DNA from: a virus
Length of the DNA stretch: 64,000 nt
Direction: 5' to 3' (one strand)
UHGV virus genome: UHGV-0134778
The notes beneath the pieces were generated by a model. The model saw nothing but the letters and a program-made list of their open reading frames with translations. It searched no databases and had not been told where the DNA came from. A program made the position numbers and the translations under genes. Of this stretch, positions 24,064 to 27,651 are shown in pieces (the stretch's first letter is position 1; every line of letters starts with the position of its first letter).

Positions 24064-24279
24064 ATGAAGATAGAAATATTTGGTGGAGCTGACAACACTT
24101 GTGGCCTGATTTACCTCGAATTCGATGAATCGTACCTGCCAGAAGTGTTAAACATGGATTCTGTTGCTGAGGCTTTGGGAGTAAGTCCTAAAGATCTCTA
24201 CTCTGGTGCTGAGATTGATGGTTGGGAGGAGACCATGAACATCGATTTCAGTGAAGTAGGTGATGAACCGCTGGACTGA
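24064..24279 (+). CDS. hypothetical acidic protein (71 aa), last plus-strand gene of block
   Basis: AGAGGAGA RBS upstream. Confidence 0.5.
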   Translation: MKIEIFGGADNTCGLIYLEFDESYLPEVLNMDSVAEALGVSPKDLYSGAEIDGWEETMNIDFSEVGDEPLD

Positions 24280-25802
24280 CACACAATTAGTTGCCCGGCT
24301 AAAGTGCTGGAAGCACCCATAACATCTTCCAACTAAATTTCCTACCAACACAGTTACTTACCCACCACACATGACTGTTTGCTTGTTTAGTGAGCAGTCA
24401 TCCCTTGACATTCTTGCCTATCTTGATAAAATTAAGTTCTTCTCTTTTCTTTTACCGAGTAATTCGGGTTTTCTGTTCTCTTCGGTTTGAAGGGGTATGG
24501 AGATACACCTGAGTGAACAGGGTGAACAACCGAACCTTTAGCTATGGCATTAGCATGGCGAAGCGGACGGGTGACGAAAGAGGGGCCGGAGGACACCAGT
24601 CACTGCCATATAGTATATGGGTGATAACCTGAAGAGTCTGAATAAGTGTTTAAGTACCAGTCAGAGGAAAAGGTGAATGGTAGCCGAAGGGGGAGGGGGG
24701 TTTCTTATATCTTTAATTTGTATACTTTATATACACTTGTAAACCAATTCAATTAGGATCTGTTTACCACACAAAGTGGATGGAGACAAATATCACCTAT
24801 TAAACTTGAATTATTTATAGAAAATACCACAACACTACTTAAGTCTTTGATTTTACACACAAATCCTACAGATACTCACCCTCCATATTTAACATACTTG
24901 TAACATATCCCATACTCTACCTGTCTGATCAATTTACCCAACTACATCCCCATATTTTTCCTGTCTGTACTACCCCTGCCCCGCCGGGAGTCCCGTCATA
25001 TCTGGCTTCCCAGCAAATATCACACCCACAAATATCATTGCCTGAAGAGGGTTTCATCCCATAATACACACCTTGCCTGAAGAGCGATTCATACACCAAC
25101 TAAATTTTTTAATTGACCCCTCCCCGCCGCCGGAGAGGTTGGCTTTTCCCACACAGGCCTGAAGAGTCAGCCAGAAATATCTGAACAGGCCCAGTTATAC
25201 CACGATTTTGACATGACCGACAGGAGTGCTACCCTGTCAGGAGCCGGTAGCGACTGGAGTGCTGCCAGGCGGACGAAATGGGAATACTTCTCATTCTTAT
25301 AACAATTCTCAAATATCGAGGCAGTGAGGCAAATTAATAGGTGAGGCCGTTCACACAGTGGCACAACATTTGCAACCTATCTTGTGGGGTGAATGAGAAT
25401 ACCTATCATTGTGAGAATAGTTATCATTACGGGCAATTTAACATAATACCCATTATGCGCACCACTGGCGATACATACAGGGATTGATAACATGGGTTAC
25501 TGTTTACGCACATAACAATTATATTTCTTACTATTTGTGCGGGATATAGTTAGCAACCAATAGATTAGATATTGACCTGCGGACTTCTGACCGTCCAGAC
25601 GTCTAAACGCCCACACAACAAGGGTTATACATACATTCCTGAATGTAAACAGGGCCGCAAAAATGCTACCATACCAGTTTGTAAATTTTTCATGCAGCAC
25701 TTGACAAAGAGGAGAAAAACTTGTCTGACACTTTTGCCACTTTTGACACTTTTACCTTTGACACAATATGACACAATAACGGCTGTTACTATTCCATATC
25801 TC

Positions 25803-25858
25803 ACTGTTTACGCATAGACTGTTTACGCCTGAATAGTTTACGCCCAAACTGTTTACAC
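25803..25858 (+). repeat. four tandem iteron-like repeats ACTGTTTACGC
   Basis: ACTGTTTACGC at 25803 and 25818, AGTTTACGC at 25835, ACTGTTTACAC at 25848; further copies near 25508 and 26322. Confidence 0.7.
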
Positions 25859-25869
25859 AGAGATGATGA

Positions 25870-26163
25870 GCCATGCCATTCGTTTGCATGAAAACAATTA
25901 ACAAGATAACAATTAACAAGTTAATAATCTTTCGCTGGCTATGCCAGGTGACTAGGTCACCCCTTCGGGCGTTTATATGACATAATATAAAAGCAGGGCA
26001 ACTATTAGAAGATCTATAGTTGCCTTGCTTGTTATGTCATGATTAACTAAATACAAGGCAACTATGATCTGAGTAATAGATTGCAGAAAAACTATCACGG
26101 GGGTGATGGTTACTGCTTTTATATTATGTCGCGACTCCGTCGCGCCATGCCATTCGTTTGCAT
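25870..26163. repeat. composite element: 20-bp direct repeats flanking 18-bp inverted repeats and GGCAACTAT hairpins
   Basis: DR GCCATGCCATTCGTTTGCAT at 25870 and 26144; IR GACATAATATAAAAGCAG (25979-25996) vs CTGCTTTTATATTATGTC (26113-26130); GGCAACTAT/ATAGTTGCC four times; palindromes GGTGACTAGGTCACC and GCGACTCCGTCGC. Confidence 0.7.
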
Positions 26164-26780
26164 AGTTGCCTTATTGTTACAGGTAAAATAATTACATTAT
26201 TAATTATTTCTTATCTTTCTCTTAGTCATCTAATGATTCCAGTCAGTATAGTAATGTACAGTAAACATTAGACGACTAAAGATTTCTCTGTTTATGATAA
26301 CTCATCGTGATAATTTCGGGCTGTTTACGAAAAATGTTGACACCTGAGCTGATTTATGTTATGCAGTCTACACGAATAATTATTTTATGCAGGTATTGAC
26401 TATTCCGTTATTCTGTGGTTGGAATAAATACTTTGCAGGCTATAGAATGGCGTGCGTACGTGAATTCTGAGATCTGGCGGCTATAGTTATACTCGATTTT
26501 TCGCGTAGAACACGCTTTAGATGCTGTGTAAGTGTATGACTTATAAAGATTTTTAGTTGTTGACAAGATATTGGAGATGTGCATCAGGTTAAAATTTGTG
26601 CAATAGCGGCATTACGTGCACTTTTGGGAGAGAAAACGGGTAAAAATGGACTTGCTACCACACAATGAAAAATTATGCAATAGTTATTTTCCATGTATAT
26701 TTGTACAGTATGTGGGATTGATGGCTAGTCAATTATTCCACTTGCCAGGTAGGGCCGTTTATGGTAGGAGAAGAGCAGAC

Positions 26781-26805
26781 AAAAAGAAAGGGGCCTAAGC
26801 CCCTT
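26781..26805 (-). terminator. intrinsic terminator ending the minus-strand block
   Basis: On minus strand AAGGGGC-TTAG-GCCCCTT hairpin followed by TCTTTTT. Confidence 0.6.
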
Positions 26806-26823
26806 GATAATTCAGTTAAAAAA

Positions 26824-27243
26824 TTATAATGATTCGTATATTTCAAAAATCCGATTTGCCAGGTCGTTACGGTAGCTGAATTTTTCCTCACGTTTGATCA
26901 TAAGATCTTTATAGCCGTACTCTTTAAGCACTTCATTAACTTTATGGCGGCATACTTTCATATTATCCTGCGCGTCACCAATAAATCTGTTGCTATGGTG
27001 CATGGCTTTAATTTCTTCTTCCAGGACCAGGGCAACTATGCGGACCGGATCAAGCTGATAGGCGGTAACATCCATGCGGCATTGTAAACGGCTTTTTACG
27101 TCTGCCACCGGATATACTGCAACCTCTTCCCCGTCAACATTGACAATAATTAGTTTACCATCGATTTCGAATCCTTTCGCCGCCGGACCGTGACAAAAAG
27201 CGTTATCAAAGCTATATGCCGGATTATTAGATTTAATGTTCAT
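26824..27243 (-). CDS. hypothetical protein (139 aa)
   Basis: Co-oriented minus-strand ORF. Confidence 0.55.
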   Translation of the reverse strand: MNIKSNNPAYSFDNAFCHGPAAKGFEIDGKLIIVNVDGEEVAVYPVADVKSRLQCRMDVTAYQLDPVRIVALVLEEEIKAMHHSNRFIGDAQDNMKVCRHKVNEVLKEYGYKDLMIKREEKFSYRNDLANRIFEIYESL

Positions 27244-27387: not shown

Positions 27388-27651
27388 TTATTTGTTGCTC
27401 ATCCAGTTTTCCCAAGCTGCCTGATAATCTGCCTCACTACGGCGGATCTCTTCTTGCTCTTCAAGGCGGATCTCTTCTTCCAGGTACCCCAAGATGTCAG
27501 CCTTTTTAGTCTGGCGTAGCATCCAGTCATCTTTTTTGCGAGTGAAGATCTTATAAGCTTTCTCGCAAACCTCTTTTTTGCTACCTTTCTGGACTTCAAG
27601 AACACGATAAGCCATATATTGAACTAATTTGAGCTGATCAAGACGTTTCAT
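27388..27651 (-). CDS. hypothetical protein (87 aa)
   Basis: AAAGAGG RBS; upstream GC hairpin. Confidence 0.55.
   Translation of the reverse strand: MKRLDQLKLVQYMAYRVLEVQKGSKKEVCEKAYKIFTRKKDDWMLRQTKKADILGYLEEEIRLEEQEEIRRSEADYQAAWENWMSNK

What the first reader, a model, noticed from the sequence alone, without database searches (positions are those of the whole stretch)
25870..26163. Composite element: 20-bp direct repeats flanking 18-bp inverted repeats and four GGCAACTAT half-sites
GCCATGCCATTCGTTTGCAT occurs at 25870 and 26144. Between them sit perfect inverted repeats GACATAATATAAAAGCAG / CTGCTTTTATATTATGTC (25979-25996, 26113-26130), a GGCAACTAT-N10-ATAGTTGCC hairpin (25997-26023), two more GGCAACTAT/ATAGTTGCC copies, and the palindromes GGTGACTAGGTCACC and GCGACTCCGTCGC. 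This looks like either a protein-binding origin/partition-type site or a small inserted non-autonomous element bounded by duplicated target sequence.
Basis: seen in the sequence. Interest (0 to 1): 0.65.

Follow-up and report, generated by a model that had tools for sequence, protein, structure and literature searches.

The report
Conserved folded element beside terminal repeat
The repeats are real and are this rV5-like phage's copy of a multi-hairpin non-coding element that a whole phage subfamily keeps, with compensating base changes, just inside the left end of its DNA; it is not a transposon-like insertion, and what it does is still unknown.

Summary
All reported repeats exist and far exceed chance. 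The window is an rV5-like phage (Vequintavirus). The finding lies in a 2.5-kb gene-free gap where two gene arms converge. By alignment to two phages with mapped ends, that gap holds the 459-bp direct terminal repeat (window 25268-25726). The core (25977-26180) begins about 250 bp to its right.

Phages of other Vequintavirinae genera (Mydovirus, Seunavirus, Henunavirus, the A73 group) share no alignable DNA here. Yet all carry the same architecture at the same place:
- a perfect 16-21-bp long-range inverted repeat closing a multi-hairpin domain;
- then a GC box;
- then a roughly 20-nt sequence that has a second copy upstream.

Stems co-vary: 18 of 68 pairs show double changes, against 7.6 in shuffles. 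Wobble pairs favour the + strand. A covariance model built only from the other genera finds the window's core.

So the 20-mer repeat is an inherited feature, not a target-site duplication. Phage FV3, which lacks the unit exactly between the 20-mers, is a secondary deletion.

Function is unknown. I favour a structured + strand RNA (about 0.45) over a single-stranded-DNA cis element for end-linked replication (about 0.25). No Rfam family or paper describing it was found.

The parts
25268..25726 (.). Equivalent of the 459-bp direct terminal repeat (physical genome ends) of Vequintavirus. The finding lies in the left-end unique DNA just to its right.
   Evidence: Records of phages Gotham (annotated repeat_region 1-459) and HdK5 both start at window 25268, and Gotham 1-464 aligns to 25268-25730. 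Terminal repeats of 458-459 bp are reported in PMC7471380 and PMC6563267.
25726..25859 (+). Variable iteron zone: TGACAC(TTT) repeats at 9-10-bp spacing (25726-25780) and CTGTTTACGC x4 at 15-bp spacing (25804-25859).
   Evidence: Copy number and sequence change by block indels among relatives, and only about 61% of relatives are alignable here.
25870..25889 (+). 20-mer direct repeat, copy 1 (GCCATGCCATTCGTTTGCAT).
   Evidence: Kept in most relatives, lost in V18; FV3 has a single copy.
25892..25976 (+). Variable accessory zone: AACAATTAACAAG repeats (-35-like TTAACA), the palindrome GGTGACTAGGTCACC (25947-25961) and a CCC-TTCG-GGG hairpin (25960-25969).
   Evidence: Present or absent as blocks among 17 relatives, so dispensable for the core.
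25979..25996 (+). Left arm of the clamp helix P1 (GACATAATATAAAAGCAG). It contains an extended -10-like TGACATAAT (25978-25986).
   Evidence: Perfect complement of 26113-26130. Arms are perfect in all 11 arm variants seen across genera, with compensatory differences. TGACATAAT is kept in all 18 Vequintavirus sequences.
25997..26024 (+). First hairpin (GGCAACTAT-N10-ATAGTTGCC, extendable to 25991-26030 with one + strand G.T). It is the equivalent of helix P2 of the family.
   Evidence: The covariance model aligns it to P2. It is annotated as a - strand terminator in the Murica and Alma records.
26054..26066 (+). Third GGCAACTAT site (CAAGGCAACTATG). It can pair with 26016-26027 or with 26161-26172.
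   Evidence: (I4, I11), 40 and 102: alternative pairings appear in the predicted folds.
26090..26111 (+). Last hairpin (AACTATCAC-GGGG-GTGATGGTT), followed by A plus the T-rich right arm. Terminator-like on the + strand; equivalent of the last hairpin of the family.
   Evidence: terminator-like site. Across genera this hairpin shows compensatory changes and is followed by a conserved GTTA.
26113..26130 (+). Right arm of clamp helix P1 (CTGCTTTTATATTATGTC).
   Evidence: It lies in the most conserved 50-nt block of the gap: 0.004 differences per site over 26100-26149.
26131..26143 (+). GC box GCGACTCCGTCGC.
   Evidence: Homologous to GCTCCCTACGGTCGC (A73) and (GC)TCGCTACGCTCGC (Mydovirus, Seunavirus, Henunavirus), always directly after the right arm.
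26144..26163 (+). 20-mer direct repeat, copy 2. Its start GCCATGCC is homologous to GCCAC(C/T)(T/C)CC in the other genera.
   Evidence: In each group the sequence at this position has another copy upstream, though its sequence and the position of the other copy differ.
26161..26179 (-). Fourth GGCAACTAT-type site (CATAGTTGCCTTATTGTTA), overlapping the end of 20-mer copy 2. This is the right edge of the highly conserved core.
   Evidence: (I4, I7).

Best explanation
Shown. The finding is the Vequintavirus copy of an old non-coding element shared by the phage subfamily Vequintavirinae. It lies in the gene-free gap where the two gene arms converge, about 220-310 bp to the right of the direct terminal repeat, that is, just inside the left end of the packaged genome. 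It is built from base-paired stems:
- the 18-bp inverted repeat is a clamp helix closing a roughly 150-nt multi-hairpin domain;
- the GGCAACTAT hairpin is the first hairpin of that domain and AACTATCAC/GTGATGGTT is the last;
- a conserved GC box follows, and then the second 20-mer.
The 20-mer pair is part of this inherited architecture, not a target-site duplication.

Inferred. The strand that folds is the + strand. Most likely it does so as a small, highly structured RNA transcribed rightwards, away from the terminal repeat. The promoter would lie at or just upstream of the left arm, and termination at the last hairpin plus the T-rich right arm (in other genera, at the GC-box hairpin plus a T run). 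This RNA would be an accessory, non-essential product or cis-signal of the DNA end. Its molecular target is unknown.
For: Position:
- The terminal repeat maps to 25268-25726.
- Klebsiella phage KPP-1 (terminal repeat mapped, PMC9862379) has a perfect 21-bp inverted repeat 309 bp right of its repeat.

Architecture:
- The same order recurs in 10 further lineages without alignable sequence to the window: arm, hairpin, inner hairpins, last hairpin, GTTA, arm, GC box, GCCAC-repeat.

Pairing is selected:
- 98.2% of 1085 cells are paired.
- 18 of 68 pairs show changes on both sides, against 7.6 +/- 1.6 in shuffles (0 of 500 reach the observed value) and 0-5 in slid controls.
- 11 different arm sequences are all perfectly complementary.

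Same family:
- A covariance model built only from Mydovirus, Seunavirus and Henunavirus hits the A73 group at 29-33 bits (E about 1e-7).
- It hits Gotham at 15.4 bits and NHEP1 at 18.8 bits.
- It hits window 25972-26178 (+) at 16.7 bits, E 1.6e-4, full length. The - strand scores only 8.8 bits.

Strand and RNA hints:
- 26 G.T cells against 2 A.C cells, plus a + strand G.T in the window's first hairpin.
- Loops typical of stable RNA hairpins (my own knowledge), cUUCGg and cGAAAg, on the + strand.
- A terminator-like hairpin plus T tract on the + strand.
- TGACATAAT is conserved in all 18 Vequintavirus sequences, and four of them add TTAACA/TTAATA at a 16-nt spacing.
- The A73 group has TTGACA-16-TAYAWG abutting the left arm.
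- Extra hairpins are inserted into loops (Mydo, phita32), as in RNA expansion segments.
Against: - No transcript data are available.
- No sigma-70 promoter is conserved across all groups. In Vequintavirus the DNA immediately upstream of the left arm is the most variable part of the gap.
- The -10-like motif lies inside the left arm. A start there would leave that arm out of the RNA, which conflicts with the clamp helix that covariation supports.
- The clamp helix never shows a G.U pair. That fits DNA-level or two-strand constraints at least as well as RNA.
- Both strands fold about equally well.
- Wobble asymmetry rests on only 5 column pairs.
- Both gene arms already end in their own terminators, so the gap may be transcriptionally quiet.
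- The role of the 20-mer repeat is unexplained; it has no significant complementary partner.
Confidence: 0.45

Rival explanations
1. A DNA-level cis element. When the + strand next to the terminal repeat becomes single-stranded, it folds, and the fold recruits priming or replisome loading. This could happen when the strand is displaced by repeat-primed, recombination-dependent replication, or during concatemer processing. The fold would then act like a single-strand initiation signal or single-stranded-DNA promoter, so that synthesis runs back through the terminal repeat.
For: - The position right of the terminal repeat is constant in all genera (220-310 bp), and no mirrored structure exists left of or inside the repeat.
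- Conservation has a sharp edge exactly at the left arm, with no conserved promoter upstream.
- The clamp helix is strictly Watson-Crick in all 11 arm variants.
- Folding is strand-specific to the + strand, which is the strand displaced by a rightward fork started in the repeat (inference).
- The helix carries a -10-like hexamer in every group.
Against: - Nothing is known about single-stranded intermediates in these phages.
- A simple staggered-nick and fill-in duplication of the repeat needs no such signal.
- G.T pairs and the UUCG and GAAA loops are more typical of RNA.
- FV3 lacks the core and is a viable phage.
Confidence: 0.25
2. An array of double-stranded protein-binding sites, such as a terminase small-subunit site like lambda cosB, initiator iterons or a partition site. 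The GGCAACTAT-type sites, the arms and the 20-mers would each be bound by a phage protein.
For: - Several sequence motifs recur in alternating orientation. The window has 4 GGCAACTAT-type sites; other genera have 5 ACRATAACRCG-type sites.
- Some unpaired segments and one helix (GTTATCGTGGC / GCCACGATAAC) are invariant across genera, which suggests sequence-specific recognition.
- The 20-mer repeat has no pairing partner.
- The element is next to the packaging cut sites.
Against: - Three unrelated hairpins and the clamp helix change sequence between lineages while keeping complementarity, which binding sites for one protein would not do.
- Wobble asymmetry.
- Neighbours are only small proteins of unknown function.
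- FV3 lacks the core, so it cannot be an essential pac or ori site.
Confidence: 0.1
3. Two back-to-back intrinsic terminators that insulate the terminal repeat and packaging site from transcription. Leftward transcription would stop at hairpin 26030-25991 plus its T tract; rightward transcription would stop at hairpin 26090-26111 plus its T tract.
For: - A terminator-like site is found on the + strand.
- The GGCAACTAT hairpin is annotated as a - strand terminator in the Murica and Alma records.
- Each arm is the T-rich tail of the adjacent hairpin.
Against: - It does not explain why the two 'tails' must be perfectly complementary over 16-21 bp and co-vary.
- It does not explain the inner hairpins, the GC box or the repeat.
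- In other genera the arms are not T-rich.
- The leftward arm already has a strong terminator at 26788-26805.
Confidence: 0.1
4. A small non-autonomous mobile element (254-274 bp) that inserted with a 20-bp target duplication, FV3 being the empty site.
For: FV3 has exactly one 20-mer and none of the intervening DNA.
Against: - The element is present in the records examined other than FV3, and homologous elements sit at the same site in all outgroup genera.
- The second 20-mer's position and first bases are homologous across genera.
- The inverted repeats are not terminal to the unit.
- There is a single locus per genome.
- It is absent from E. coli chromosomes, and the only 'plasmid' hit is a phage genome.
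- Palindrome-pattern hits in viral contigs are unrelated.
- Deletion between direct repeats flanking a long inverted repeat is a common event, and also a possible cloning artefact.
Confidence: 0.03

Closest known systems
Non-coding signals around the T7 terminal repeat and concatemer junction. These are the short-repeat arrays flanking the repeat (my memory of Dunn & Studier 1983) and the junction pause/terminator, which also carries an extended -10 sigma-70 promoter motif (bioRxiv 10.64898/2026.02.12.705533).
   Same: - A phage with short direct terminal repeats and fixed ends.
- Gene-free DNA next to the repeat holding arrays of short repeats (here TGACAC and CTGTTTACGC).
- Dual promoter-like and terminator-like signals (here TGACATAAT, and hairpins with T tracts).
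   Different: - There is no sequence similarity.
- T7 has no long-range clamp helix or multi-hairpin domain.
- T7 signals act on T7 RNA polymerase and are tied to packaging.
- Here no link to packaging is shown, and FV3 lacks the core.
phi29 packaging RNA (pRNA)
   Same: A structured non-coding RNA of about 120-170 nt encoded close to the left end of a linear phage genome (my own knowledge).
   Different: - pRNA belongs to protein-primed podoviruses without a terminase small subunit and is essential.
- No Rfam family, pRNA included, matches here.
- The present element is probably dispensable.
Single-strand initiation signals and single-stranded-DNA promoters (phiX174/G4-type ssi, F-plasmid Frpo)
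   Same: - Strand-specific folding of one DNA strand into hairpins.
- In Frpo a stem rebuilds promoter elements for primer RNA synthesis (my own knowledge). Here the clamp helix carries a -10-like hexamer in every lineage.
   Different: - Those act on DNA that is known to be single-stranded (ssDNA phages, conjugative transfer). No such intermediate is known here.
- Here the stem is only 16-21 bp, with no -35 element.
Injection-stop-signal region of phage T5
   Same: A non-coding region near the left end that is packed with direct and inverted repeats (my own memory of the T5 literature; not checked here).
   Different: - The T5 region lies about 10 kb from the end and delimits first-step-transfer genes.
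- Here the element is about 0.7 kb from the end, with no genes before it.
- Covariation of stems has not been described for T5.
MITE-like elements / insertions with target-site duplication
   Same: Direct repeats flanking inverted repeats, and one relative (FV3) that looks like an empty site.
   Different: - The inverted repeats are not at the ends of the unit.
- A 20-bp duplication would be unusually long.
- It is single-copy, syntenic across genera, and absent from host genomes.

Membership tests
Vequintavirinae left-end structured element (family defined here; covariance model R1) | Lies in the convergent gene-free gap, a few hundred bp to the right of the direct terminal repeat. | tested here: met
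   The window's left arm starts 253 bp after the repeat's end. In KPP-1 the distance is 309 bp. The conserved repeat-boundary motif was found in all groups.
Vequintavirinae left-end structured element (family defined here; covariance model R1) | A perfect 16-21-bp long-range inverted repeat (60-220 nt apart) that encloses hairpins and is followed by a GC box and a GCCAC-type repeat. | tested here: met
   The window has an 18-bp perfect repeat 116 nt apart, then GCGACTCCGTCGC, then GCCATGCC....
Vequintavirinae left-end structured element (family defined here; covariance model R1) | A significant full-length match to a covariance model built without any Vequintavirus sequence. | tested here: met
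   Window 25972-26178 (+) scores 16.7 bits, E 1.6e-4 in 4 kb with filters off. It was not reported in the 64-kb search with default filters. Gotham scores 15.4 bits, NHEP1 18.8 bits and the A73 group 29-33 bits. The match is modest for Vequintavirus and strong for the bridging A73 group.
Non-autonomous transposable element with target-site duplication | Terminal inverted repeats directly abutted by the duplicated target. | tested here: not met
   The inverted repeat arms lie 89 nt inside the left 20-mer and 13 nt inside the right one.
Non-autonomous transposable element with target-site duplication | Several copies, or copies at non-homologous sites, in this or other genomes. | tested here: not met
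   - One place per record in the phage records listed.
- None in E. coli genomes.
- One 'plasmid' hit that is itself a phage genome.
- Pattern hits elsewhere are unrelated.
Non-autonomous transposable element with target-site duplication | An empty site that is ancestral. | tested here: not met
   Only FV3 lacks the unit. All outgroup genera have the element at the same site, so FV3 is a secondary loss.
Iteron origin or partition (parS-type) site | Direct repeats in one orientation with helical phasing, bound by an adjacent initiator or ParB gene product. | tested here: not met
   GGCAACTAT sites alternate in orientation and form stems. The nine nearest genes have no Pfam domain and fall in PHROGs of unknown function. 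Binding itself is not testable here.
Essential packaging recognition site (cosB/pac type) | Indispensable cis site next to the terminase cut. | tested here: inconclusive
   FV3 lacks the whole core but is a deposited, propagated phage. However, the FV3 deletion could be a cloning or assembly artefact. The conserved repeat-boundary motif at 25660-25731 is a better candidate for the cut-site signal.
Intrinsic (Rho-independent) terminator | A G+C-containing stem-loop followed by a T run, downstream of a gene on the same strand. | tested here: inconclusive
   The pattern is met at 26090-26111 (+). The 25991-26030 hairpin is annotated as a - strand terminator in relatives. But the nearest genes have their own terminators, and the pattern is not kept in other genera.
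Any Rfam family | A match at the gathering score. | tested here: not met
   No match in the whole window. In the gap only chance-level hits with E of 0.8 or more.
Invertible promoter switch (inverton) | Both orientations of the segment between the inverted repeats occur, and a recombinase gene is nearby. | tested here: not met
   All 37 sequences fetched (18 Vequintavirus including the window, 3 of the A73 group, 16 of other genera) have the interior in the same orientation relative to the flanks. No recombinase is nearby.
Small RNA gene (promoter, structured body, terminator) | A conserved promoter and terminator on the same strand, and a detectable transcript. | tested here: inconclusive
   An extended -10-like TGACATAAT is conserved in Vequintavirus, and a near-consensus promoter abuts the arm in the A73 group. 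Promoter signals are weak in other genera. A terminator-like 3' end is present. Transcripts are not testable with these tools.

The most novel reading that the evidence does not exclude
The element is a previously unrecognised class of strand-specific folded cis-signal that couples the terminal repeat of these large myoviruses to DNA replication or packaging. Two examples of what that could mean:
- a single-stranded-DNA promoter or priming site (Frpo/ssi-like) on the displaced + strand, which starts synthesis back through the repeat;
- a pRNA-like structured RNA acting at the genome end.
Probability: 0.15. Interest if true: 0.85.

Novelty: new variant of a known kind. Interest (0 to 1): 0.6.

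Why it matters
Vequintavirinae (rV5, PVP-SE1, Klebsiella and Cronobacter phages) are widely used in phage therapy and biocontrol cocktails. Yet nothing is known about how their ends are recognised, replicated or packaged, and the 2-2.5-kb gap at their ends is left blank in annotations.

This work maps the terminal repeat onto the gap. It also shows that a roughly 200-300-nt structured element with clear covariation is conserved next to it across at least five groups. That gives a concrete, testable object: a new candidate RNA or DNA motif family for Rfam-type curation, a target for deletion and compensatory mutagenesis, and a landmark for orienting and opening assemblies of these phages correctly.

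It also shows that a 'direct repeats flanking inverted repeats' pattern with an apparent empty site can be an inherited structure plus a secondary deletion, rather than a mobile element.

Tried and rejected
- Known RNA families: the Rfam scan of the whole window and a permissive scan of the gap found nothing. There are no tRNAs.
- Mobility: the core is absent from E. coli genomes, and the one plasmid hit is a phage genome. The 26 viral contigs matching GGCAACTAT-N-ATAGTTGCC, other than two rV5-like contigs, are unrelated chance palindromes.
- Wider scans: metagenome and genome scans with a 17-mer of the Mydovirus-type element gave mostly chance hits. Five metagenome loci carried the motif pair; three held the complete element and were used, and no bacterial-genome locus did.
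- Pairing partner for the 20-mer: none better than shuffles.
- Mirror-image structure left of or inside the terminal repeat: none.
- Coding potential: only ORFs of 35-41 aa, not conserved, and the region is unannotated in most records.
- Invertible switch: rejected, because the orientation is constant.
- Neighbouring genes: no informative domains.
- The promoter at 24405-24432 as the start of a structured RNA: the downstream 288 nt are not better folded than shuffles (z -1.1).
- Literature: no description of this gap or element was found. T7 papers in the library gave only general context.
- Higher conservation of the core than of the rest of the gap: only partly true. Block 26100-26149 is the most conserved, but several flanking blocks are similar.
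Full report
**1. The observation**

- The 20-mer GCCATGCCATTCGTTTGCAT occurs only at 25870 and 26144 in the 64 kb, even allowing three mismatches, with none expected.
- The 18-bp inverted repeat (25979-25996 / 26113-26130) is perfect and unique.
- GGCAACTAT occurs four times within 175 bp, in the order + - + -, against 0.54 expected in the whole window.
- The hairpin spans 25997-26024, and the two palindromes are at 25947-25961 and 26131-26143.
- Either strand folds about eight standard deviations better than shuffled sequence.

**2. Context**

The window is an rV5-like phage. 120 phage records match at 80-99% identity, all Vequintavirus, including mislabelled 'Campylobacter phage' entries.

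The finding sits in a roughly 2.5-kb stretch (24280-26823) without credible genes. Plus-strand genes end at 24279, minus-strand genes end at 26824, and cumulative GC skew peaks here. Most depositors leave the stretch unannotated.

Two records that were opened at experimentally determined ends, Gotham (annotated repeat_region 1-459) and HdK5, both begin at window position 25268. Gotham 1-464 aligns to 25268-25730. The papers report 458-459-bp terminal repeats and one fixed packaging start (PMC7471380, PMC6563267).

So the gap contains the physical genome ends. The terminal repeat corresponds to 25268-25726, and the finding lies in the first few hundred bases of left-end unique DNA.

**3. Close relatives**

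An alignment of 17 relatives shows three zones.
- Variable zone 25730-25860, the TGACAC and CTGTTTACGC iterons. It changes by block insertions and deletions, and only about 60% of relatives align here, at 25% difference.
- Variable zone 25890-25976: the AACAATTAACAAG repeats, the GGTGAC..GTCACC palindrome and a CCC-TTCG-GGG hairpin. These also change by blocks.
- The core from 25977 to about 26180, which is almost invariant. Block 26100-26149 (right arm, GC box and the start of the second 20-mer) is the best conserved block of the whole gap, at 0.004 differences per site.

Other variants:
- phita32 and A135 carry a 33-bp insertion right after the first hairpin.
- V18 lacks the left 20-mer.
- FV3 has the left flank, a single 20-mer and the right flank, and lacks everything between.

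**4. Distant relatives decide the polarity**

Klebsiella phage KPP-1 (genus Mydovirus) has its 514-bp terminal repeat mapped (PMC9862379). It has the same convergent gap. Its DNA is not alignable to the window, but it carries a perfect 21-bp inverted repeat 164 nt apart, starting 309 bp to the right of its repeat.

The KPP-1 region is conserved at 72-80% in Seunavirus, Henunavirus and other Mydovirus phages, with many alignments starting exactly at the left arm. I fetched eight of these, plus seven more from viral and metagenome contigs, and three phages of the A73 group, which is closer to rV5.

Every one has a perfect 16-21-bp long-range inverted repeat. Eleven different arm sequences occur, each exactly matched by its partner. 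Examples are CACGGGAG/CTCCCGTG, CACTAGGG/CCCTAGTG, ACTATAAC/GTTATAGT and, in the Erwinia phage, GCCACCTATAAAAGCAAGTAG.

The order of parts is the same throughout:
1. left arm;
2. a hairpin immediately after it;
3. inner hairpins;
4. a last hairpin;
5. GTTA;
6. right arm;
7. a GC box (GCGACTCCGTCGC here, GCTCCCTACGGTCGC in A73, TCGCTACGCTCGC elsewhere);
8. a GCCAC/GCCAT-initiated stretch of 15-20 nt that has another copy somewhere upstream.

The upstream copy is inside the element in Mydovirus and Seunavirus, 90 nt upstream here, and about 300-400 nt upstream in the A73 group.

The arms themselves grade into each other: PVP-SE1 GACACTATAACACGAG, A73 GACACTATAAAACGAG, window GACATAATATAAAAGCAG.

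Hence the element, including the position of the second 20-mer, is ancestral to the subfamily. FV3 is a secondary deletion between the two 20-mers, or possibly a cloning artefact, since long inverted repeats are unstable in clones.

**5. Is pairing selected?**

On the 16 non-Vequintavirus sequences (alignment A1) the consensus fold has 68 pairs.
- 98.2% of 1085 cells are standard pairs.
- 18 pairs have changes on both sides, against 7.6 +/- 1.6 when partners are shuffled (0 of 500 shuffles reach it).
- Only 0-5 do so when partners are slid by 1-3 columns.

Four helices carry the covariation: the clamp, the first hairpin, a middle hairpin and the last hairpin. One helix (GTTATCGTGGC / GCCACGATAAC) and the 3' GC-box hairpin never vary.

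A covariance model built only from these sequences gives these hits:
- the A73-group elements at 29-33 bits, E 7e-8 to 6e-7 in the search (up to 1.4e-6 in the larger search);
- Gotham at 15.4 bits and NHEP1 at 18.8 bits;
- with filters off, window 25972-26178 on the + strand as the top hit, at 16.7 bits, E 1.6e-4, full length.

In that window alignment the GGCAACTAT hairpin is placed on the first hairpin of the model and the 18-bp arms on the clamp. The - strand scores 8.8 bits. Membership of the window's element in this family is therefore supported both by synteny and architecture and by a formal, if modest, score.

**6. Which strand, and RNA or DNA?**

In the family alignment, non-Watson-Crick cells are 26 G.T (five column pairs) against 2 A.C. 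The window's first hairpin also has a G.T on the + strand. This points to the + strand as the folded one.

Points that fit an RNA:
- RNA-typical loops (cUUCGg in the window's accessory hairpin and in AV124, cGAAAg in the Erwinia phage) lie on the + strand.
- The + strand has a terminator-like end: the last hairpin plus CTGCTTTTATATT here, and the GC-box hairpin plus TTTTTATTT in most other genera.
- All 18 Vequintavirus sequences keep TGACATAAT (extended -10-like) at 25978-25986, and four of them add TTAACA/TTAATA 16 nt upstream.
- The A73 group has TTGACA-16-TA(C/T)A(T/A)(A/G) ending two bases before the arm.
- Extra hairpins are inserted into loops (Mydo, phita32, EspYZU08), which resembles RNA expansion segments.

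Points against an RNA:
- No promoter is conserved across groups.
- The DNA just upstream of the arm is the most variable in the gap.
- A start from the motif inside the arm would exclude the arm from the transcript, which contradicts the clamp helix.
- The clamp never shows a wobble.
- Both strands fold equally well.

I therefore put RNA at about 0.45 and a single-stranded-DNA role at about 0.25.

The DNA reading would be folding of the displaced + strand next to the repeat, acting as a priming or loading signal. It is attractive for three reasons: the structure exists only on the right side of the repeat, its distance from the repeat is constant, and the strand fits a rightward fork primed in the repeat. 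But no such intermediate is known for these phages.

**7. Other readings**
- Protein-binding array (cosB-, iteron- or parS-like). It would explain the repeated motifs, the invariant segments and the partner-less 20-mer. It would not explain covariation in unrelated hairpins, and no relevant gene is nearby.
- Back-to-back terminators. They fit the local pattern in this genus. They do not fit the need for complementary arms, nor the other genera.
- Mobile element. Contradicted as described in sections 3 and 4 and.
- Inverton. Contradicted by the constant orientation in all 37 sequences.

**8. Known or new?**

No Rfam family matches. Full-text searches for Vequintavirus/rV5 with termini, intergenic, origin or non-coding RNA terms found only the terminal-repeat lengths.

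The closest analogies are:
- the non-coding signals around the T7 terminal repeat, whose junction pause site also carries an extended -10 promoter;
- phi29 pRNA;
- single-strand initiation signals;
- the T5 injection-stop region.

The last three are cited from my own knowledge. None shares the defining clamp-plus-hairpins-plus-GC-box layout.

I class this as a new variant of a known kind: a new family of structured non-coding element at a phage genome end. It has good evidence for structure and ancestry, and an open function.

Noticed in passing
window 25660-25731; L042 2966-3050; alignment A3: The right boundary of the terminal repeat carries a motif conserved across genera that otherwise do not align: TTTGTAAAT-N-CTTGACA(A/G)(A/G)GAG(G)AGA..TTGT(C/G)T(T)TAGCA. 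The repeat ends inside it. It is a candidate terminase recognition or cut signal, and it also resembles a TTGACA-17/18-TAGCAT promoter in 4MG.
   Followed up: partly
window 25726-25859: Two iteron arrays lie immediately after the terminal repeat: TGACAC(TTT) at 9-10-bp spacing and CTGTTTACGC x4 at 15-bp spacing, with further copies at 25500 and 26321. Copy number and sequence vary by blocks between close relatives, but GTTTAC repeats are always present. They are reminiscent of the short-repeat arrays flanking the T7 terminal repeat (memory).
   Followed up: partly
window 24405-24432 (+): A near-consensus sigma-70 promoter (TTGACA-16-TAAAAT with TG, 11 of 12) sits just after the last + strand gene and points into the gene-free gap towards the terminal repeat. 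The 288 nt downstream are not better folded than shuffles (z -1.1). If read through on concatemers, it would transcribe across the repeat into the element.
   Followed up: partly
window 25687-25696 / 25885-25894; L047 859-868 / 966-975; L049 859-868 / 965-974: There is a second long-range inverted repeat between the repeat end and the element. It reads TTTTGAGCAT/ATGCTCAAAA in Seunavirus, with a compensatory variant TCTTGAGCAT/ATGCTCAAGA in 4MG. A possible counterpart here is TTTTCATGCA/TGCATGAAAA, whose right arm overlaps the end of 20-mer copy 1. The structured region may therefore extend from the repeat boundary onwards.
   Followed up: no
L046 about 1130-1231 and L048 about 1140-1241 (upstream of the left arm): AV124 and PVP-SE1 carry a roughly 75-nt cassette of small hairpins (including GCCCTTCGGG) inserted in front of the left arm and bounded by a 13-nt duplicate of the arm's start (GACAC(A/T)ATAACAC). 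The window's accessory CCCTTCGGG hairpin block (25926-25976), present or absent among relatives, may be a similar cassette. Small hairpin modules seem to move in and out of this region.
   Followed up: no
L013 (phita32) and L014 (A135), insertion at window position 26031: A 33-bp insertion (TTAACATCCTCGAGACGAAGGCTATGCCTGAGT) lies directly after the first hairpin in two relatives. It is tolerated inside the otherwise invariant core.
   Followed up: no
GenBank records MG0656xx ('Campylobacter phage ...', UNVERIFIED) and CP057073.1: Eighteen 'Campylobacter phage' records are Vequintavirus genomes 90-95% identical to this E. coli phage. A 137,565-bp E. coli 'plasmid' in PLSDB is also a Vequintavirus genome. 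These are probable mislabelling or contamination.
   Followed up: no
window 27388-27651 (-): The 87-aa protein next to the gap is annotated 'DNA translocase (FtsK)' in several relatives. It has no Pfam hit and belongs to a PHROG of unknown function. The annotation looks unfounded.
   Followed up: partly
window 26222-26279: A further 22-nt inverted repeat (82%, 14 nt apart) and several weak promoter-like sites lie in the well-conserved 600 bp of non-coding DNA between the core and the first leftward gene. A strong terminator for the leftward arm is at 26788-26805, and a near-consensus promoter at 27321-27293 (-).
   Followed up: no
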